From the sequence record NC_048136.1: a stretch of 39,793 nt of DNA. One strand, written 5' to 3'. Shown one piece after another: positions 1,874 through 39,526 of the stretch. This DNA comes from Escherichia phage Ro45lw. The notes beneath the pieces were generated by a model. The model searched no databases and was not told the origin of the DNA. It saw only the letters and a list, made by a program, of their open reading frames with translations. Position numbers and translations under genes: made by a program. Every line of letters starts with the position of its first letter. Within the stretch, counting starts at the first letter, position 1.

Positions 1874-2068
1874 ATGGTCTGGGCGCTTCTGGTCATCGGC
1901 TACGGGTTAATACTCGCAGTCATCACGAAAGACATCGCCAAGGCACGTAAAGTCTACCGCTTCCAGTATGTATCACTGGGCCGCTGGACTGTAAGACAAC
2001 CGAACGGACGCTTTATGCGCAACCTCGCAAACGTCTGGGACATCTCAACCTTAGGGAGTAAACTGTAA
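1874..2068 (+). CDS. Small hydrophobic early protein, 64 aa (putative membrane protein)
   Basis: ATG 1874 preceded by GAGGG; product MVWALLVIGYGLILAVITKD... has one predicted transmembrane helix; the longer ORF 1712-2068 needs a TTG start. Confidence 0.4.
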   Translation: MVWALLVIGYGLILAVITKDIAKARKVYRFQYVSLGRWTVRQPNGRFMRNLANVWDISTLGSKL

Positions 2069-2394
2069 TGAGTAAATCTTATGGCATCAACTTGGCCCAT
2101 GCACTTGACGCAGACCTTAATCTGCTTTCAGCACTAGCTACGGGCTACCGTCACGGGACCTCAAGTCACACCGTTCGTCAACAGCAGGAGCGAGACCGGG
2201 TGCTGCAAGCAAGACTCCGGGCCGAGGGCCATAAGGCCGAGCTGATGTGTCTGGCGTATGGTGGTCGACCACGCACTGACGATGGTAAACTTCTGGTCTC
2301 CGGCTGGCGGGCAATGGACCAGCGGGCAGACATCAAGCACACGACACGCGGTGACTTCAGTCATCTGCACGCTAACCCACTGATATGCAAGTAG
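2068..2394 (+). CDS. Hypothetical early protein, 108 aa, at the gene 0.7 position
   Basis: ATGA overlap with the upstream stop, RBS GGGAG; far shorter than the T7 gp0.7 kinase, no kinase motifs seen. Confidence 0.5.
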   Translation: MSKSYGINLAHALDADLNLLSALATGYRHGTSSHTVRQQQERDRVLQARLRAEGHKAELMCLAYGGRPRTDDGKLLVSGWRAMDQRADIKHTTRGDFSHLHANPLICK

Positions 2395-2399
2395 TTTGG

Positions 2400-2422
2400 A
2401 CTAAACTATCACTAAAGGACTC
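2400..2422 (+). promoter_or_regulatory. Phage-RNAP promoter-like element (variant CACTAAAGG) upstream of the RNA polymerase gene
   Basis: CTAAACTATCACTAAAGGAC differs from the genome consensus at one position (-2 T to A); overlaps the inverted repeat 2408-2417 / 2461-2470. Confidence 0.45.
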
Positions 2423-2497
2423 AAGGTCGAAAGACTCTAAGTCAGGACTGAAGTGAAAGACTTTAGTGATAAGACAATAGTTATAAGGACTTTAAGT

Positions 2498-5179
2498 ATG
2501 GGCGTCATATCAATTGACAAACACGACTTCTCTGATGTGTCGAATGCAATCGAACCTTTCAACGTACTGGCGGACCACTACGGGCAAGACCTCGCAGTCA
2601 AGCAGCTACAGCTAGAGCATGAGGCATACACTGAAGGTGAGCGACGTTTCATTAAGAACCTTGAGCGTCAGACCGAGCGCGGGGAACTAGCAGACAATCA
2701 GGTCGCTAAGCCTCTGATGCAAACGCTGGTCCCGACCATCGCTAAGGCTGTGCGTGAGTGGCATGAAGGCCCGGACGGTAAGTCATCGACCTCGCGTCCA
2801 AGCGTAGCGTTTACCATGTTGAGCACTGACGAGAAGGCTGTAAAAGACCGCTCTCTGCTAATCTCTGCGGAGTCTGCTGCGGTCATCATACTGAAAGTCA
2901 TCCTCAGCAAGCTGGTCAAGCCTGAAGGCATTCCGATAACTCCTATGGCATCCGCGATAGGTCGCACACTGGAAGACGAAATCCGCTTTGGCCGCATCCG
3001 TGAGCAGGAGCAGGAGCACTTCAAGAAGACCATAGCGGAGAACCTGAAGAAACGCGCTGGTGCAAGCTACAAGAAAGCCTACATGCAGGCAGTCGAGGCG
3101 TCTATGCTTGAGCAGGGGCAACTGGCTGACGCGTGGGGGACTTGGAGTCCGACCGAGGCTGTCCACGTAGGCATCAAGATGCTAGAGCTGGTCATCCAGT
3201 CGTCGCAACTGGTCGAGCTGAAGCGCTACGGTGCGGGAAACGCTGCGGCAGACGTCGAGATGGTCCACCTGTCAGACTTCTGGGTCAAGAAGATGGCACA
3301 ACGTGGATTCAGCCTTGCAGGTATCGCGCCAGTCTACCAGCCATGCGTCGTCCCACCTAAGCCGTGGACCGGGGTGGTGGGCGGTGGGTACTGGGCTAAA
3401 GGTCGCAGGCCTCTCCCGCTGATTCGCTTGGGGTCAAAGGCTGCGGTCCAGCGCTACGAAGACGTGTACATGCCTGAAGTGTACGAGGCGGTGAACATCA
3501 TTCAGCAAACTCCTTGGAAGGTGAACAAGAAGGTGCTGGAAGTGGTGAACATGGTCGAGAAGCTGAATAACACGCCTATCGCTGACATCCCTCAGATGGA
3601 GCCACTAAAGCCTGAAGACTATGCGGGTGAGACCGAGGAGGAACTTAAGGCTTGGAAGAAGTCTGCGGCTGGTATCTACCGGCGCGAGAAGGCCAGACAG
3701 TCTCGCCGTTTGTCCCTGAGCTTCATCGTCTCACAGGCTAACAAGTTCTCTCAGTTTAAGGCCATCTGGTTCCCATACAACATGGACTGGCGGGGCCGAG
3801 TGTACGCTGTCCCGATGTTCAACCCTCAAGGCAACGATATGCAGAAGGGCCTGCTGACTCTGGCGGTAGGTAAGCCAATCGGTGCCGATGGTTTCAAATG
3901 GCTGAAGGTCCACGGTGCAAACTGTGCGGGTGTCGATAAAGTCACCTTCGAGGAGCGCATCAAGTGGGTGGAAGACAACCACGACAACATCATGGCTGCT
4001 GCTAAGGCACCGATGGACAGCATTGAGTGGTGGGGCAAGTTAGACTCTCCGTTCTGCTTCCTAGCGTTCTGCTTCGAGTATGCTGGCGTAATGCACCACG
4101 GATTGTCTTACTCCTGCTCGCTGCCAATAGCGTTCGATGGGTCCTGCTCTGGGATTCAGCACTTTAGCGCGATGCTTCGTGACCACATCGGTGGACATGC
4201 GGTAAACCTGACGCCTTCCGGTAAGGTCCAAGACATCTACCGCATTGTGTCCGACCGGGTGGAAGAACAGCTCAAGGAACTGCTGGTCAGCGGCAGTGAC
4301 AACGAGGTGAAGACCTTCGAGGACAAGAAGACTGGCGAGATTACTGAACGTCTGGTCCTTGGGACCCGTGAGCTGGCTCGACAGTGGCTGACCTACGGGA
4401 TGTCGCGCTCGGTCACTAAACGCTCGGTAATGACTCTGGCCTACGGGTCGAAGGAATACGGGTTCGCGGACCAAGTGTTTGAGGATACCGTGATGCCCGC
4501 GATTGATAGTGGCAAGGGCGCAATGTTCACAGACCCAAGCCAAGCATCGCGCTTCATGGCTAAGATGATATGGGACGCTGTGAGTGTGACCGTAGTTGCT
4601 GCGGTTGACGCGATGAAGTGGCTTCAAGGTGCTGCAAAGCTGCTGGCTGCTGAAGTGAAGGACAAGAAGACTGGCGAAATCCTGAAGCCCTGCCTTCCGG
4701 TACACTGGGTAACACCCGATGGGTTCCCGGTCTGGCAGGAATACCGCAAGAAGGATACCACCCGCCTGAACCTCCTGTTCCTTGGGTCGTTCAACCTGCA
4801 ACCAACAGTCAACAAAGGGTCGAAGAAAGAGCTGGACAAGCACAAGCAGGAGTCCGGTATCAGCCCTAACTTTGTACACTCACAGGACGGCAGTCACCTG
4901 AGGAAGACTGTGGTCCACACCCACCGCAAGTATGGCGTGATGTCCTTCGCGGTTATTCACGACAGCTTTGGGACCATCCCAGCAGACGCTGAGTTCCTGT
5001 TCAAGGGTGTCCGTGAGACGATGGTCGAGACCTACCGCGACAACGATGTGCTGCAAGACTTCTACGAGCAGTTCGCGGACCAGCTTCACGAGAGCCAGCG
5101 CGACAAGTTGCCTGAGCTTCCGAAGAAAGGTAAACTGAATATCGAGGACATCTTGTCTTCAGACTTTGCATTCGCTTAA
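2498..5179 (+). CDS. 1: DNA-directed RNA polymerase, single-subunit T7-type
   Basis: Collinear with T7 RNAP along its full length (e.g. FPYNMDWRGRVYAV, DGSCSGIQHFSAMLRD, HDSFGT, C-terminal FAFA); ATG 2498 matches the T7 N-terminus, the upstream GTG 2453 start is less likely. Confidence 0.95.
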   Translation: MGVISIDKHDFSDVSNAIEPFNVLADHYGQDLAVKQLQLEHEAYTEGERRFIKNLERQTERGELADNQVAKPLMQTLVPTIAKAVREWHEGPDGKSSTSRPSVAFTMLSTDEKAVKDRSLLISAESAAVIILKVILSKLVKPEGIPITPMASAIGRTLEDEIRFGRIREQEQEHFKKTIAENLKKRAGASYKKAYMQAVEASMLEQGQLADAWGTWSPTEAVHVGIKMLELVIQSSQLVELKRYGAGNAAADVEMVHLSDFWVKKMAQRGFSLAGIAPVYQPCVVPPKPWTGVVGGGYWAKGRRPLPLIRLGSKAAVQRYEDVYMPEVYEAVNIIQQTPWKVNKKVLEVVNMVEKLNNTPIADIPQMEPLKPEDYAGETEEELKAWKKSAAGIYRREKARQSRRLSLSFIVSQANKFSQFKAIWFPYNMDWRGRVYAVPMFNPQGNDMQKGLLTLAVGKPIGADGFKWLKVHGANCAGVDKVTFEERIKWVEDNHDNIMAAAKAPMDSIEWWGKLDSPFCFLAFCFEYAGVMHHGLSYSCSLPIAFDGSCSGIQHFSAMLRDHIGGHAVNLTPSGKVQDIYRIVSDRVEEQLKELLVSGSDNEVKTFEDKKTGEITERLVLGTRELARQWLTYGMSRSVTKRSVMTLAYGSKEYGFADQVFEDTVMPAIDSGKGAMFTDPSQASRFMAKMIWDAVSVTVVAAVDAMKWLQGAAKLLAAEVKDKKTGEILKPCLPVHWVTPDGFPVWQEYRKKDTTRLNLLFLGSFNLQPTVNKGSKKELDKHKQESGISPNFVHSQDGSHLRKTVVHTHRKYGVMSFAVIHDSFGTIPADAEFLFKGVRETMVETYRDNDVLQDFYEQFADQLHESQRDKLPELPKKGKLNIEDILSSDFAFA

Positions 5180-5191
5180 CAGGAGAGAGTT

Positions 5192-5407
5192 ATGAAATTC
5201 GCACACAAGCAGACGGGCGTTAATGGTGGGACTCAAATCGTGACCGTGACTGAACACAACGGCAAGGGGCTGGTTAAAACAACAGTCATCCCGACCGAGA
5301 TGTCCAAGCAGCTTAACATTCCGTTCAAGACTCTTGTATATCTGGTCGAGTCCAGCCACGAGAAGTACCTGAAGGACGCAGTGTCCAAGCTGGGGCAGAC
5401 CAAATGA
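5192..5407 (+). CDS. Hypothetical protein, 71 aa
   Basis: Strong RBS AGGAGAG 7 nt upstream of ATG; intergenic position between genes 1 and 1.1. Confidence 0.5.
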   Translation: MKFAHKQTGVNGGTQIVTVTEHNGKGLVKTTVIPTEMSKQLNIPFKTLVYLVESSHEKYLKDAVSKLGQTK

Positions 5408-5482: not shown

Positions 5483-5505
5483 CCTAAACTATCACTATAG
5501 GATTA
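5483..5505 (+). promoter_or_regulatory. Phage-RNAP promoter (phi1.1-like)
   Basis: CCTAAACTATCACTATAGGATTAG, consensus match. Confidence 0.75.
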
Positions 5506-5546
5506 GACTCAAGGTCATGACTCAAAGTCGTGGCCTTCATGATTAA
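5504..5546 (+). promoter_or_regulatory. RNase III-type processing hairpin (R1.1-like)
   Basis: TAGACTCAAGGTCATGA...TGGCCTTCATGATTAA; AAGGTCA pairs with TGGCCTT with one G-U; the motif recurs at 12465 and 36121. Confidence 0.5.
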
Positions 5547-5577
5547 CCCTAAATAAACACTACTGGAGATTTAACCG

Positions 5578-5757
5578 TATGTATCAGAACACTATCAACT
5601 TCGAGCGCATCCGTGAACGTCAGCAGACTGAAGGTTACATTCCTAAAGGCCGCAAGCTGAACAAGACTAAACGTGGCGGTGGCATCAAAGGTGCTTTCCG
5701 TAACGCTGAAGGTAAAGACTCTCTGGTCAACCAAGAGAAATACTTCGTAGGAGCATA
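5578..5757 (+). CDS. 1.1: gp1.1-like small basic protein, 59 aa
   Basis: KGRKLNKTKR motif as in T7 gp1.1; RBS GGAG upstream. Confidence 0.6.
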
Positions 5758-9921: not shown

Positions 9922-10134
9922 ATGATTAAGTTTATCGAATTTCTGGGTCGTCTGGTTGTGCGTGGCTATTCTCGTGCTGCGAGTGTGGAACGAGCAGTCT
10001 CTACCAAAGCGGCGAAAGGTTCTGCGGAAGCTCAGGAGCTGGCTGACCGCCTGATGGTAACTAGCTTTGATGCGGCCCAACGCGCCAACGGTCTGGACAA
10101 GAAGGCCGAGCAGCTTAAAGGCTTCTTCAACTAA
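9922..10134 (+). CDS. Hypothetical protein, 70 aa
   Basis: RBS AAGGAG 8 nt upstream of ATG. Confidence 0.5.
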   Translation: MIKFIEFLGRLVVRGYSRAASVERAVSTKAAKGSAEAQELADRLMVTSFDAAQRANGLDKKAEQLKGFFN

Positions 10135-10154
10135 ACTATCACCTAAGGGATGAG
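10132..10154 (+). promoter_or_regulatory. Degenerate phage-promoter-like element (CACCTAAGGG)
   Basis: CTAAACTATCACCTAAGGGA matches the upstream half of the consensus, core altered; followed by hairpin GGGATGAGAC/GTCTTGTCCC at 10147-10171. Confidence 0.35.
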
Positions 10155-10199
10155 ACCATGAGTCTTGTCCCTTTGTTCGCATTATTGACTAAGGAGTGA

Positions 10200-11903
<1,704 letters not shown>

Positions 11904-12450: not shown

Positions 12451-12467
12451 CTATCACTGTAGGATAG
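12445..12467 (+). promoter_or_regulatory. Phage-RNAP promoter upstream of DNA polymerase, variant CACTGTAGG
   Basis: GCTTAACTATCACTGTAGGATAG. Confidence 0.65.
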
Positions 12468-12504
12468 ACTCAAGGTCATTCACATCGAGTGGCCTTTATG
12501 ATTA
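12465..12504 (+). promoter_or_regulatory. RNase III-type processing hairpin
   Basis: TAGACTCAAGGTCATTC...TGGCCTTTATGATTA, same motif as 5504 and 36121. Confidence 0.5.
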
Positions 12505-12522
12505 GACTATAGGAGATTAACC

Positions 12523-14538
12523 ATGATTGACTTACAGAACATCTGGGGTTCGGACATCGAGACCAACGGTCTCCTTGACACCGTGTCCCAGTTCCACTGT
12601 GGGGTCCTGATTAACGCCGAGTCGAACGAGACCCTGAAGTATGGGGTGGTGCCGATGGTCGGTATCGTCGGTGGCTTTAAAGAGTATGTGGAGAAGGTCG
12701 AGCAGATTGCAGCGACTCCGCATGGACTGCTGGTCTTCCACAACGGTATTAACTATGACGTTCCAGCGATTGACATCCTGAAGCGTAAATACTTTGGGAA
12801 GCGTTTCAACTTTCCGAAGCAGAAGATGATAGACACGCTGGTCATGGGACGCCTGATGTATCCGAACATTAAGTTCTCGGACATTGGGGCTGTGAAAGCT
12901 GGTCGTCTTCCTCCGAAGATGATGGGCCGACAGTCGCTTGAAGCGTGGGGATACCGTCTCGGTGAGATGAAGGGCGAGTACAAGACCGATTACATTGCCA
13001 AGTGCAAGGCCGAGGGTATCGAATATAAAGCTGGGGACGAATGGTTGTTCCCTAGCCAAGAGATGCTGGACTATAACGTCCAAGACGTTGTGGTCACTCT
13101 GGCCTTGTTCAAGAGGTTCCTGACCGACAAGTTCTACTTCGGGACACCTGAAGCCGGACTTGAGGCTGTGTACGCGTTGCGTCTTGAACACGATGCTGCA
13201 TGGGCCTGTGCGAAGATGGAGCGCAACGGCTACCCGATGAACTCGGAGATAGTCGAAGGCTTGTATCGTGAGCTGTCTATTAAACGAGCTGAGCTGCTGG
13301 ACAAGCTGCGTTCGACCTTTGGTAGCTGGTATGCGCCGAAGGGTGGCAAGGAGTTCTTCAGACATCCGAGGACTGGAGTTGACCTGCCGAAGTACCCGCG
13401 AGTCGTGTACCCGAAGGTCGGGGCCATCTTCAAGAAGCCGAAGAACAAAGCACAGCGCTTAGGTCTTGAGCCTTGTGAGCGAGACTCCCGTGATACTATG
13501 GAAGGCGCACCGTTCACACCGATTACATTCGTTGAGTTTAATCCGGGTTCCGGGGACCACTTAGCGAGGGTGCTGATGGAACGCGGATGGGAGCCTGTGG
13601 ACTTCACGGAGACCGGGAAACCTGTAGTCGATGACGAGGCGCTGGAGAACGTCCATCTGGCAGACCCAGACGCTCAGGCTTGCGTAGAGCTGGTCCGAGA
13701 GTATCTGGTAGTCCAGAAGCGTATCGGTCAGGCGGCTGAAGGCAAGAACGCATGGCTGAAGCTCGTGGGTCCTGACGGAAGGATGCACGGGTCGATTAAT
13801 CCTTGTGGTGCTGTGACTGGACGTGCGACCCATAGTTCACCAAACATGGCTCAGGTCCCAGCTAACGGTGCCCCATACGGTGAGACTTGCCGTGGTGCTT
13901 TCGGTGCAGCGTGGAACAAGACTGACGGTAAGCCAGACCCTTGGATTCAAGTTGGTGTGGATGCTTCGGGTCTTGAGCTTCGTTGTCTGGGGAACCGTGC
14001 GTCCCCGTTCGATGGTGGTGAATATGCGAAGACTGTGGTCGAGGGAGACATCCACTGGGCTAATGCGGTCAACGCCGGGTTAGCACCTAACGTCCCACGC
14101 GACAAGTCCAGCCACGACCACGATGCTTTCCGTAACAACGCCAAGACGTTCATCTATGCGTTCCTGTATGGTGCAGGGGCCTCGAAGATTGGACTGATAG
14201 TCGGCGGTGGTAAGAAGGAAGGTTCGGCCCTGATGAAGAAATTCATTGAGGGTACGCCAGCTATCAAGGACCTGCGAGAGGCTGTGCAGAACACGCTAAT
14301 CTCCGAGTCCAAGTGGGTAGACGGTGAGAACATTGTGAAGTGGAAACGTCGCTGGCTGAAAGGTCTGGACGGTCGACGCATTCACATCCGGTCGCCACAC
14401 TCAGCACTTAACGCCTTGCTTCAGGGTGATGGTGCGGTTGTCTGTAAGCACTGGATTGTCGAGACCGAGCGTATGCTCGAAGAGGCCGGGTATGTCCACG
14501 GCTGGGATGGAGACTTTGCGTACATGGCATGGGTGCAT
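12523..14538 (+). CDS. 5: DNA polymerase, exon 1 (codons 1-672)
   Basis: Collinear with T7 gp5 (IETNGL, exonuclease motifs, thioredoxin-binding region, KTFIYAFLYGAG, HGWDGDFAYMAWVH); the reading frame hits TAA right after WVH although T7 continues. Confidence 0.9.
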
Positions 14539-21092: not shown

Positions 21093-22142
21093 ATGGCAAA
21101 CGTTCCGGGTCAGAAAATTGGTGCAGACCAAGGTAAGGGCAAATCTAGTGCAGACCAGCTCGCACTGTTCCTTAAGGTCTTCGCTGGTGAAGTCCTGACA
21201 GCTTTCACTCGCCGCTCTGTTACCGCTGACAAACATATTGTCCGCACCATTCAGAACGGTAAGTCCGCACAGTTCCCGGTAATGGGTCGCACCTCCGGTG
21301 TGTATCTTGCTCCCGGTGAGCGCCTGAGCGATAAGCGCAAGGGTATTAAACACACTGAGAAGGTTATCACCATTGATGGTCTGCTGACCGCTGACGTGAT
21401 GATTTTCGACATCGAAGACGCTATGAACCACTATGACGTGGCTGGCGAGTATTCCAACCAGCTAGGTGAGGCTCTGGCTATCGCTGCGGATGGCGCGGTA
21501 CTGGCTGAGATGGCGATTCTGTGTAACCTCCCGGCTGCATCCGACGAGAACATCGCGGGTCTGGGCAAGGCGTCCGTTCTGGAAGTTGGTACTAAAGCCG
21601 ACCTGAACACTCCAGCCAAGCTGGGTGAAGCGATCATTGGTCAACTGACCATCGCACGTGCTAAGCTGACTGCCAACTACGTTCCTGCTGGCGACCGCTA
21701 CTTCTATACTACGCCTGACAACTACTCCGCGATTCTGGCGGCCCTGATGCCTAACGCTGCTAACTACGCTGCGCTGATTGACCCTGAGACGGGCAACATC
21801 CGTAACGTAATGGGCTTCGTTGTGGTAGAAGTTCCTCACCTGACTCAGGGTGGTGCTGGCGAGACCCGTGGTGACGATGGTATCTCCATTGCTTCCGGTC
21901 AGAAACACGCATTCCCGGCTACCTCCAGCTCTACCGTTAAGGTTGCTCTGGACAACGTTGTGGGTCTGTTCTCTCACCGTTCTGCTGTCGGTACTGTTAA
22001 GCTGCGTGACTTGGCGCTGGAACGTGACCGCGACGTCGATGCTCAGGGCGACCTGATTGTCGGTAAGTACGCTATGGGTCACGGCGGTCTGCGTCCAGAA
22101 GCGGCAGGCGCACTGGTTTTCACAGCAGCGTCAGCGGGCTAA
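21093..22142 (+). CDS. 10A: Major capsid protein (10A form)
   Basis: Strong identity to T7 gp10A (LALFLKVF, KSAQFPV, KHTEKVITIDGLLTADV, AAVGTVKLRDLALER, KYAMGHGGLRPEAAG). Confidence 0.95.
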   Translation: MANVPGQKIGADQGKGKSSADQLALFLKVFAGEVLTAFTRRSVTADKHIVRTIQNGKSAQFPVMGRTSGVYLAPGERLSDKRKGIKHTEKVITIDGLLTADVMIFDIEDAMNHYDVAGEYSNQLGEALAIAADGAVLAEMAILCNLPAASDENIAGLGKASVLEVGTKADLNTPAKLGEAIIGQLTIARAKLTANYVPAGDRYFYTTPDNYSAILAALMPNAANYAALIDPETGNIRNVMGFVVVEVPHLTQGGAGETRGDDGISIASGQKHAFPATSSSTVKVALDNVVGLFSHRSAVGTVKLRDLALERDRDVDAQGDLIVGKYAMGHGGLRPEAAGALVFTAASAG

Positions 22143-25411: not shown

Positions 25412-25435
25412 CTAATTGAATGGCCTATAGTTTCA

Positions 25436-25458
25436 ACTTAACTATCACTATAGGGACT
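25436..25458 (+). promoter_or_regulatory. Phage-RNAP promoter (phi13-like)
   Basis: AACTTAACTATCACTATAGGGACT. Confidence 0.8.
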
Positions 25459-25497
25459 ATAGGCCCTTTAAGTTATAATACTTTAAGAGGAGACTTT

Positions 25498-39366: not shown

Positions 39367-39526
39367 CGCCATCATGGTAACAATCAACGAAAGACGGACC
39401 TAAGGTCAGTTCATAGCTGACGCTACTCTACTGACCTTAGCTACTGTAGTCAAGGACTTTAGGTAACACCTTAAGAGAAGCTCACTTAGGGTCATCCTAC
39501 TTACTGGTCTACCCTAGTGTCGCCTG

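What the first reader, a model, noticed from the sequence alone, without database searches (positions are those of the whole stretch)
2400..2470. Phage-promoter-like element embedded in an inverted repeat directly upstream of the RNA polymerase gene
CTAAACTATCACTAAAGGAC differs from this genome's promoter consensus at one position. If active it would let the phage polymerase transcribe its own gene (positive feedback), which T7 does not do. It also overlaps a 10-bp inverted repeat (ATCACTAAAG 2408-2417 / CTTTAGTGAT 2461-2470), so it could instead be an RNA processing site or a decoy binding site.
Basis: inference. Interest (0 to 1): 0.5.

Follow-up and report, generated by a model that had tools for sequence, protein, structure and literature searches.

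The report
Phage promoter overlapping a hairpin before gene 1
This is the phage-polymerase promoter that K1F-like (Kayfunavirus) T7 relatives carry just upstream of their own RNA polymerase gene, here in a weaker-looking variant whose one odd base also completes an RNA hairpin; the arrangement is typical of T7-group phages, not a new kind of element.

Summary
ACTAAACTATCACTAAAGGACTC (2400-2422, +1 = G2417) matches the genome's ten consensus promoters except for A2415 at -2. The inverted repeat is real and is 11 bp long (2407-2417 / 2461-2471).

The element is the local copy of a promoter found at this spot across Kayfunavirus. K1F, EcoDS1, CR44b and many others have a perfect TATAGG version there, and EcoDS1's GenBank record already labels it 'phi'. 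In Cronobacter phage GW1 the polymerase specificity loop and all promoters have shifted to a T3-like form, and the gene-1 site has shifted with them, so it is kept as a cognate promoter.

A at -2 is compatible with activity: five annotated T7 promoters have CACTAAAG.

The repeat closes a predicted 65-nt hairpin that only read-through early transcripts can form. It lies where T7 has its R1 RNase III site. Analogous hairpins are predicted in most relatives, but support is modest (z about -2.4, little covariation, no T7-type 3' motif).

The self-transcription idea is plausible but not new: it is annotated in relatives, mapped in LUZ100, and T7's phiOL also lies upstream of gene 1. Activity and cleavage are untested. 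I classify it as a new member of a known kind, of low to moderate interest.

The parts
2400..2422 (+). Phage-RNAP promoter, positions -17 to +6 (ACTAAACTATCACTAAAGGACTC). Predicted start is G2417. The single off-consensus base is A2415 at -2. It is the leftmost phage promoter in the genome.
   Evidence: Weight-matrix score 29.4 bits, against 24.4-35.1 bits for the ten consensus promoters scored leave-one-out; no other hit above 10 bits lies to its left. The homologous site is a perfect promoter in K1F, EcoDS1, CR44b and GW1, and EcoDS1 annotates it 'phi'.
2407..2417 (+). 5' arm of the 11-bp inverted repeat (stem P1), equal to promoter positions -10 to +1. It is present only in RNA that starts upstream of the promoter.
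   Evidence: One search shows the exact repeat. Pairing probability is at least 0.97 in the fold of 2405-2475.
2461..2471 (+). 3' arm of the inverted repeat (CTTTAGTGATA).
   Evidence: The AGTGA core is kept in the class A, class B, class C and Kc166A versions of this region.
2418..2443 (+). Inner part of the long hairpin: GACU 2418-2421 pairs with AGUC 2440-2443, and GGUC 2425-2428 pairs with GACU 2433-2436, capped by a GAAA loop (2429-2432). It begins with the ACTCAAGGTC motif that also follows the promoters starting at 5500 and 12462.
   Evidence: Minimum-energy structure; motif comparison.
2447..2467 (+). Alternative local hairpin H2 (ACUGAAGU 2447-2454 / ACUUUAGU 2460-2467). It competes with P1 and is predicted to form in transcripts that start at 2417.
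   Evidence: in the fold of 2417-2475 H2 is in the minimum-energy structure, whereas in 2405-2475 its pairing probability is at most 0.02; with T at -2 the minimum-energy structure switches to H2.
2485..2489 (+). Shine-Dalgarno sequence AAGGA of gene 1.
   Evidence: Sequence; conserved in all relatives.
2498..5179 (+). Gene 1, single-subunit RNA polymerase (893 aa). The residues aligning with T7 N748 and R756 are N and N.
   Evidence: ORF; annotations of the hits; alignment with the T7, EcoDS1 and GW1 polymerases.
2068..2394 (+). Last small early ORF before gene 1 (108 aa). Its stop codon lies 5 nt upstream of promoter position -17.
   Evidence: The homologous ORF is annotated as a hypothetical protein, or gp0.38, in relatives.

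Best explanation
The element is the Kayfunavirus gene-1 promoter. It is recognised by the phage's own RNA polymerase and starts transcription at G2417, 81 nt before the gene 1 ATG. Gene 1 is first transcribed by host polymerase from the left-end early promoters. Once phage polymerase exists, this promoter lets it keep making (and amplify) its own mRNA after the host polymerase is shut off. It is also the first entry point for phage polymerase on the genome.

In this sub-lineage (32 database phages) position -2 is A instead of T, the same deviation seen in T7's weaker class II promoters. So the promoter is probably active but attenuated.

The promoter core also forms the 5' arm of an RNA hairpin (2407-2471) that only host-polymerase read-through transcripts can form. 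The hairpin sits where T7 has its R1 RNase III site. It most likely serves as a processing or 3'-end-stabilising signal that separates gene 1 mRNA from the upstream early genes.

A at -2 completes this stem, turning a U.U mismatch into an A-U pair.

Shown here: the sequence match, conservation across relatives, co-variation with polymerase specificity, and the predicted folds. Inferred: promoter activity, promoter strength and RNase III cleavage.
For: PROMOTER
- It has one mismatch to the consensus and scores 29.4 bits, within the leave-one-out range of the ten consensus promoters. The next best site scores 19.9 bits.
- The homologous site is a perfect TATAGG promoter in K1F, EcoDS1, CR44b, PE3-1 and about 180 other records.
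- EcoDS1's GenBank record annotates it 'phi', and CR44b's 'predicted promoter'.
- GW1's twelve promoters read TTAAACCCTCACTATAGG, and its gene-1 site reads ATTAAACCCTCACTATAGGA. GW1's polymerase has D and R at the residues aligning with T7 748 and 756, whereas the window and EcoDS1 have N and N. Residues 748 and 756 contact -10/-11 and -9 (PMC5937735). The site therefore follows polymerase specificity.
- A at -2 is found in the annotated T7 promoters phi1.5, 1.6, 3.8, 4c and 4.3 and in GW1's promoter with +1 at 21520.
- EcoDS1 places the early terminator TE after gene 1.3, so gene 1 also lies in the host-transcribed early unit.

HAIRPIN
- P1 pairs with probability at least 0.97 in the fold of 2405-2475.
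- The fold of 2405-2473 gives -19.2 kcal/mol, z = -2.49, matched by 4 of 200 shuffles. EcoDS1's version gives z = -2.30.
- In 17 of 18 sequence variants the promoter bases UCACU pair with a downstream AGUGA or GGUGA at probability above 0.9, even though the interiors differ.
- The only natural -2 variants are A (this lineage) and G (SFP20). These are the two bases that stabilise the long hairpin, by 1.5-2.3 kcal/mol; C does not.
- With T at -2 the window's minimum-energy structure switches away from P1.

PRECEDENTS
- In T7 the 5' arm of the hairpin at phi3.8 starts at -3, so its -2 A is paired. T7 phi6.5 lies inside a hairpin.
- In this genome the phi13-like promoter lies in the loop of a 13-bp stem with z = -4.83.
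Against: - There is no transcript or cleavage evidence for any Kayfunavirus; I found no transcriptome paper.
- The clade carrying the -2 A is shallow (98-100% identical across 2426-2480 in 32 records), so conservation within it says little.
- In class B and C relatives the longest perfect complement to the promoter core is only 5 nt, no better than for other promoters.
- Some variants weaken the predicted pairing (NS1 -12.3 kcal/mol), and EcpYZU01 folds differently.
- The hairpin lacks the GUGGCCUUYAUGAUU 3' motif of the two canonical T7-like RNase III hairpins in this genome, downstream of the promoters with +1 at 5500 and 12462.
- Fold predictions depend on context: the 2390-2500 fold does not contain P1, and its z-score is only -1.24.
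Confidence: 0.6

Rival explanations
1. Promoter only. The element is an active gene-1 promoter, the 11-bp inverted repeat is a chance by-product of the repetitive GACTNNAAGT-rich leader, and it has no function as RNA or DNA.
For: About two 10-bp inverted-repeat hits are expected per shuffled genome. The leader is made of similar GACTyyAAGT units that readily pair with one another. Class B and C relatives have only a 5-nt perfect complement, no better than other promoters. Hairpin z-scores are modest.
Against: Two of the three perfect inverted repeats of at least 10 bp in the genome involve phage promoters. UCACU/AGUGA closure is predicted in 17 of 18 variants despite different interiors. Both natural -2 variants are the bases that strengthen the stem. 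LET1 has about six changes in the interior and none in either arm.
Confidence: 0.22
2. RNA element only. In this sub-lineage the T-to-A change at -2 has inactivated the promoter, and the sequence is kept only as the 5' arm of a processing or stability hairpin for early mRNA.
For: This is the only one of eleven promoter-like sites in the genome with A at -2. The change is exactly what makes the stem perfect and shifts the predicted fold to P1.
Against: Five annotated T7 promoters have CACTAAAG, and so does a conserved-position promoter in GW1. Promoter positions -17 to -11 lie outside the stem yet remain consensus in every class A variant; the only change is the A/T alternation at -13 that is also seen among the genome's consensus promoters.
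Confidence: 0.13
3. Some other DNA-level role: a polymerase decoy or sink, a convergent antisense promoter on the minus strand, or a host sigma-70 promoter (as PE3-1's record labels the homologous site).
For: The minus strand reads TATCACTAAAG at 2471-2461. PE3-1 annotates the homologous site as 'host RNAP promoter'. T7 has a minor E. coli promoter, C, at 3113 just before gene 1.
Against: No minus-strand site scores above 10 bits, because positions -12 to -17 do not match. The sigma-70 scan finds nothing between 709 and 5757. The same sequence is annotated as a phage promoter in EcoDS1 and CR44b.
Confidence: 0.03

Closest known systems
Annotated 'phi' promoter upstream of gene 1 in Kayfunavirus EcoDS1 (EU734172, 2244-2266); the homologous site in CR44b is labelled 'predicted promoter'
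   Same: Homologous position: it starts at or just after the stop codon of the last early ORF, about 80-90 nt before the gene 1 ATG. The core ACTATCACT is the same, and so is the downstream GGACTCAAGGTC.
   Different: Those sites have T at -2 and a different leader interior, so their stem is interrupted (5+3+3+5 bp) rather than 11 bp continuous. None of the 32 records that share the window's version annotates anything at this site.
T7 class II promoters overlapping or adjoining RNase III hairpins (phi3.8/R3.8, phi6.5/R6.5, phi1.1A/R1.1, phi1.3/R1.3)
   Same: phi3.8 reads CACTAAAGGG, and its -2 A is paired within the hairpin that follows it. phi6.5 lies inside a hairpin that only read-through RNA can form. 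phi1.1A is followed by ACTCAAGGTC. These show the same logic: promoter and RNA signal share sequence.
   Different: T7 has no phage promoter immediately before gene 1. There it has the R1 hairpin and the minor E. coli promoter C. The RNase III cleavage coordinates for T7 are recalled from Dunn and Studier 1983; the records I could read do not list them.
LUZ100 phi1, a phage-specific promoter directly upstream of the RNAP gene (PMC10134795)
   Same: A cognate promoter sits directly ahead of the polymerase gene, and a positive feedback loop was explicitly proposed. The start site was mapped by ONT-cappable-seq.
   Different: LUZ100 is a distant Pseudomonas phage with an integrase and a MarR-type regulator thought to repress that promoter. 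There is no sequence homology to the window, and no hairpin overlap was reported.
T7 phiOL (position 405)
   Same: It is the leftmost phage promoter, lies upstream of gene 1 and points the same way, so T7 polymerase can in principle transcribe its own gene.
   Different: phiOL lies about 2.8 kb upstream of gene 1, before the whole early region. The window has no phiOL-like site left of 2417.

Membership tests
Cognate promoter of a T7-group single-subunit RNA polymerase (Kayfunavirus type) | Match to the genome's own roughly 23-bp consensus from -17 to +6, with G at +1 | tested here: met
   One mismatch (at -2). Score 29.4 bits, against 24.4-35.1 bits for the ten consensus promoters scored leave-one-out; the next best site scores 19.9 bits.
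Cognate promoter of a T7-group single-subunit RNA polymerase (Kayfunavirus type) | The specificity bases (-8 to -12) fit the phage's own polymerase and change together with its specificity loop in other lineages | tested here: met
   The window and EcoDS1 have CTAT at -11 to -8 and N/N at the residues aligning with T7 748 and 756. GW1 has CCCT with D/R. In each case the gene-1 site follows its own genome's consensus (contacts from PMC5937735).
Cognate promoter of a T7-group single-subunit RNA polymerase (Kayfunavirus type) | Consensus TATA at -4 to -1 | tested here: not met
   The site reads TAAA (A2415). The same deviation occurs in five annotated T7 promoters and one GW1 promoter, so it does not exclude activity.
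Cognate promoter of a T7-group single-subunit RNA polymerase (Kayfunavirus type) | Intergenic, pointing the same way as the genes, and at a position conserved in relatives | tested here: met
   It lies between ORF 2068-2394 and gene 1. The homologous site is present in all 23 distinct Kayfunavirus-like sequence variants collected.
Cognate promoter of a T7-group single-subunit RNA polymerase (Kayfunavirus type) | Transcription by the cognate polymerase starts at +1 | not testable with these tools
   This needs in vitro transcription or 5'-end mapping.
T7-type RNase III processing site (R1 equivalent) | Intergenic irregular hairpin of about two helical turns, formed in polycistronic RNA | tested here: met
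   Hairpin 2407-2471 with 11+4+4 bp, -19.2 kcal/mol, z = -2.49.
T7-type RNase III processing site (R1 equivalent) | Location equivalent to T7 R1, between the last early gene and gene 1 | tested here: met
   By gene order. T7 folds a hairpin at 3114-3135, between gene 0.7 and gene 1. The R1 cleavage coordinate itself is from memory.
T7-type RNase III processing site (R1 equivalent) | Pairing kept across relatives, with compensatory changes | tested here: inconclusive
   The closing helix is predicted in 17 of 18 variants, and the -2 A and -2 G variants strengthen it. But the 5' arm is fixed by the promoter, independent changes are few, some variants weaken pairing, and the class B/C complement is only 5 nt.
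T7-type RNase III processing site (R1 equivalent) | Sequence signature of this genome's canonical T7-like sites (ACUCAAGGUCAU ... GUGGCCUUYAUGAUU) | tested here: not met
   The 5' part, ACUCAAGGUC, is present at 2419-2428. The 3' GUGGCCUUYAUGAUU motif is absent, unlike downstream of the promoters with +1 at 5500 and 12462.
T7-type RNase III processing site (R1 equivalent) | Cleavage by host RNase III | not testable with these tools
   This needs an in vitro cleavage assay or a comparison of rnc and wild-type hosts.
Self-transcribing polymerase gene (LUZ100 phi1 type) | Phage-specific promoter directly upstream of the polymerase gene | tested here: met
   The predicted start site lies 81 nt before the gene 1 ATG.
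Self-transcribing polymerase gene (LUZ100 phi1 type) | A repressor (MarR-like) and lysogeny module controlling that promoter | not tested
   I did not search the early ORFs for domains. The window has the T7-like lytic gene layout, and none of the annotated relatives I listed shows an integrase.

The most novel reading that the evidence does not exclude
Because promoter and hairpin share sequence, gene 1 mRNA might behave differently depending on which polymerase made it. Host-polymerase read-through RNA contains the 5' arm and folds into the long hairpin, where it could be processed or stabilised. RNA started by the phage polymerase at G2417 lacks that arm and refolds: hairpin H2 forms, and the 5' ACUCAAGGUC can pair with the region around the gene 1 ribosome-binding site. 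This could damp the positive feedback. Under this reading, the -2 A in this lineage would tune both promoter strength and the choice of fold. My accessibility calculation gave only 1-2.5 kcal/mol differences, and the direction was inconsistent among class B relatives, so this is not excluded but is weakly supported.
Probability: 0.1. Interest if true: 0.55.

Novelty: new member of a known kind. Interest (0 to 1): 0.25.

Why it matters
The finding matters mainly for annotation and for understanding how gene 1 is regulated in K1F-like phages, which are used in phage therapy and as sources of orthogonal polymerase-promoter pairs.

- Kayfunaviruses differ from T7 in having a cognate promoter directly before their polymerase gene. 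This implies self-sustained polymerase expression after host shut-off.
- None of the 32 database genomes that share this window's version annotates the site.
- The -2 A variant is a natural example of one base serving both a promoter and an overlapping RNA stem. It is a clean, small system for testing how T7-group phages trade promoter strength against RNA processing signals.
- It does not reveal a new type of element.

Tried and rejected
- Rfam: no family reached its gathering score anywhere in the window. In 2300-2600 there was only a chance snoRNA hit with E = 5.
- Host sigma-70 promoter or intrinsic terminator at the site: the scan found nothing near it.
- Minus-strand promoter or decoy: nothing scores above 10 bits on the minus strand.
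- Differential accessibility of the ribosome-binding site in read-through versus phage-initiated RNA: the differences were small and inconsistent.
- MAFFT alignment for a formal covariation count: the 3' arms were put out of register by indels. I therefore folded each variant separately and did not use the count of structure pairs.
- Metagenome scan for divergent versions of this lineage's leader: only three near-identical copies were found.
- IMG/VR scans: these gave 23 distinct variants, but most belong to three shallow classes.
- Literature: the K1F genome paper and Chen and Schneider 2005 are not held. I found no quantitative value for a -2 T-to-A change. I found no Kayfunavirus transcriptome.
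- RNase III site annotations in the T7 records: not listed in the copies available.

Full report
WHAT THE WINDOW IS
The 39,793-bp window is a complete T7-like genome of the K1F group (Kayfunavirus, Studiervirinae). The closest database records are about 93% identical over 2000-5200; the best is Enterobacter phage EP1. Gene 1, the single-subunit RNA polymerase, runs from ATG 2498 to 5179. The finding lies in the 103-nt gap between the last small early ORF (2068-2394) and gene 1.

CHECK OF THE OBSERVATION
The quoted sequences and coordinates are correct.
- Ten sites elsewhere on the + strand share the consensus CTWAACTATCACTRTAGGR.
- The candidate, ACTAAACTATCACTAAAGGACTC at 2400-2422 with +1 = G2417, differs only at -2 (A2415 instead of T).
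- A weight matrix built from the ten promoters scores it 29.4 bits. The ten score 24.4-35.1 bits when each is left out in turn, and the next best site in the genome scores 19.9 bits. The '+1' coordinates printed are one base too high through my indexing slip; one search gives the correct ones.
- The inverted repeat is exact and is 11 bp long: 2407-2417 / 2461-2471.
- Such a repeat is not improbable on its own. The genome has three perfect inverted repeats of at least 10 bp (5 overlapping hits), against about 2 hits in shuffles.
- It is nevertheless much the longest complement between any promoter core and its downstream sequence: 11 nt here, at most 6 nt for the others.

IS IT A PROMOTER?
Relatives give the clearest answer. 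The homologous position was recovered from 23 distinct sequence variants.

Most relatives carry a perfect consensus site.
- K1F, EcoDS1, CR44b, PE3-1, SH4 and the other 'class B' phages carry a perfect CTTAACTATCACTATAGGACTCAAGGTC.
- This class accounts for about 180 of the 220 records that match the region.
- EcoDS1's GenBank record labels the site 'phi', like its other phage promoters. CR44b's record calls it 'predicted promoter'. PE3-1's record calls it 'host RNAP promoter', which the sigma-70 scan does not support.

The site follows polymerase specificity.
- In Cronobacter phage GW1 every promoter has the T3-like form TTAAACCCTCACTATAGG, and the site before gene 1 reads ATTAAACCCTCACTATAGGACTCAAGGTC.
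- GW1's polymerase has D and R at the positions aligning with T7 N748 and R756. The window and EcoDS1 have N and N.
- These residues contact -10/-11 and -9 respectively (PMC5937735).
- A site that changes together with the polymerase's specificity is being maintained as a cognate promoter.
- K1F polymerase and its promoter are also used experimentally as an orthogonal expression pair (PMC12218169).

DOES THE A AT -2 KILL IT?
Probably not.
- Five annotated T7 promoters read CACTAAAG: phi1.5, phi1.6, phi3.8, phi4c and phi4.3.
- GW1 has a TAAAGG promoter before gene 4.
- From general knowledge, T3's consensus also has A at -2, and T7's class II promoters are weaker and shut off earlier than class III.
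- I therefore read this site as an active but probably attenuated, class II-like promoter.
- Promoter positions -17 to -11 lie outside the stem and stay consensus in all variants of this lineage. The only change is the A/T alternation at -13 that is also seen among the genome's own promoters.

WHAT IS THE INVERTED REPEAT?
As RNA, the segment 2405-2473 folds with the repeat as an 11-bp closing stem, P1.
- P1 continues into GACU/AGUC and GGUC-GAAA-GACU. The fold has -19.2 kcal/mol and z = -2.49; 4 of 200 shuffles fold as well. P1 pairing probability is at least 0.97.
- The 5' arm is promoter positions -10 to +1. Only RNA that starts upstream, that is host-polymerase early transcripts, can form this hairpin.
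- RNA that starts at 2417 is predicted to form a local hairpin instead, at 2447-2467.
- Predictions depend on how much flanking sequence is included: the 2390-2500 fold lacks P1.

Relatives show a similar closing helix.
- Class B and class C relatives fold into an analogous but interrupted hairpin: UCACU/AGUGA, AGG/CUU, CUC/GAG and GGUCU/AGACC. EcoDS1's version has z = -2.30.
- In 17 of 18 variants the promoter's UCACU pairs with a downstream AGUGA (GGUGA in CtuP_B1) at probability above 0.9, although the interiors differ between classes.
- EcpYZU01 is the exception.

Position -2 links the promoter and the stem.
- The only natural variants at -2 are A (this lineage, 32 records) and G (SFP20).
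- In both the window and EcoDS1 backgrounds, A or G at -2 stabilises the long hairpin by 1.5-2.3 kcal/mol, and C does not.
- With T at -2 the window's predicted fold switches away from P1.
- This suggests selection on the stem, but it rests on only two events.

Evidence against a functional hairpin:
- The perfect complement in classes B and C is only 5 nt, which is at background level.
- NS1 weakens the predicted stem.
- This lineage is too shallow for its conservation to be informative.

WHAT WOULD THE HAIRPIN DO?
By gene order it occupies the place of T7's R1 RNase III site; T7 also folds a hairpin between gene 0.7 and gene 1. T7's polycistronic RNAs are cut by host RNase III at such sites (PMC6938266).

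Promoters that share sequence with these hairpins are normal in this phage group.
- In T7 the phi3.8 hairpin's 5' arm starts at -3, so its -2 A is paired. T7 phi6.5 sits inside a hairpin.
- In this window the phi13-like promoter (+1 = 25453) lies in the loop of a 13-bp stem with z = -4.83.
- The promoters with +1 at 5500 and 12462 are followed by canonical ACUCAAGGUCAU...GUGGCCUUYAUGAUU hairpins.

The gene-1 hairpin shares the ACUCAAGGUC start of those hairpins but lacks their 3' motif. I therefore hold 'RNase III site' as likely rather than shown.

COMPARISON WITH WHAT IS KNOWN
- The promoter is annotated in EcoDS1 and CR44b.
- A phage promoter directly ahead of the polymerase gene was mapped in LUZ100, with feedback proposed (PMC10134795).
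- T7's phiOL at 405 also lies upstream of gene 1 on the same strand.
- Unlike T7, the window has no phiOL-like site, so the 2417 promoter is its leftmost phage promoter.

VERDICT
- The element is a conserved, probably active gene-1 promoter in a -2 A variant. It overlaps a predicted R1-type hairpin.
- My confidence in that composite reading is about 0.6. Most of the remainder goes to 'promoter only, repeat incidental' and to 'hairpin only, promoter dead'.
- It is a new member of a known kind, and interest is low to moderate.

Noticed in passing
window 25422-25465: GGCCTATAGT (25422-25431) and ACTATAGGCC (25456-25465) form a perfect 10-bp inverted repeat, which extends to a 13-bp stem in the fold (z = -4.83, matched by 0 of 200 shuffles). 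Its loop contains the whole phi13-like promoter (+1 = 25453). This is a second, much stronger case of a promoter inside a hairpin that only read-through RNA can form.
   Followed up: partly
window about 10128-10155: CAACTAAACTATCACCTAAGGGATGAGA is an off-consensus promoter-like site scoring 19.9 bits. It may be the counterpart of the 'phi' site that EcoDS1 annotates before gene 4 (11107-11129), of GW1's TAAAGG promoter (+1 = 21520) and of T7 phi3.8. I did not align these sites to confirm it.
   Followed up: no
window 5500-5580 and 12462-12530: The promoters with +1 at 5500 and 12462 are each followed by a canonical T7 R1.1-like hairpin (GACTCAAGGTCAT...GTGGCCTTYATGATTA). These are probably RNase III sites.
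   Followed up: partly
window 39400-39440: CTAAGGTCAGT (39400-39410) has a perfect 11-bp inverted partner at 39430-39440 near the right end, downstream of the last promoter (+1 = 39059). Its function was not examined.
   Followed up: no
window 2395-2497 compared with L089 (SH4) and L117 (Dev2): The gene-1 leader looks like a mosaic junction. SH4's polymerase N-terminus is 99% identical to the window's, yet SH4 carries the class B leader. Dev2 carries the window-type leader behind a different upstream gene.
   Followed up: partly
window 2498-5179 (residues aligning with T7 748 and 756): The window and EcoDS1 polymerases have N and N where T7 has N748 and R756. GW1 has D and R, matching its T3-like CCC at -11 to -9. 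This is a clear natural example of polymerase and promoter changing together within one genus.
   Followed up: yes
L003 (PE3-1, NC_024379, 2874-2896): The homologous phage promoter is annotated as 'host RNAP promoter' in the PE3-1 RefSeq record. This is probably a mislabel, because the sequence is a perfect phage consensus and has no sigma-70 match.
   Followed up: partly
and one search hit lists: Near-identical Kayfunavirus sequences are deposited as 'Staphylococcus phage MBBL139' and 'Enterococcus phage IME_EF3'. These host labels are implausible for this enterobacterial phage group and are probably contamination or mislabelling.
   Followed up: no
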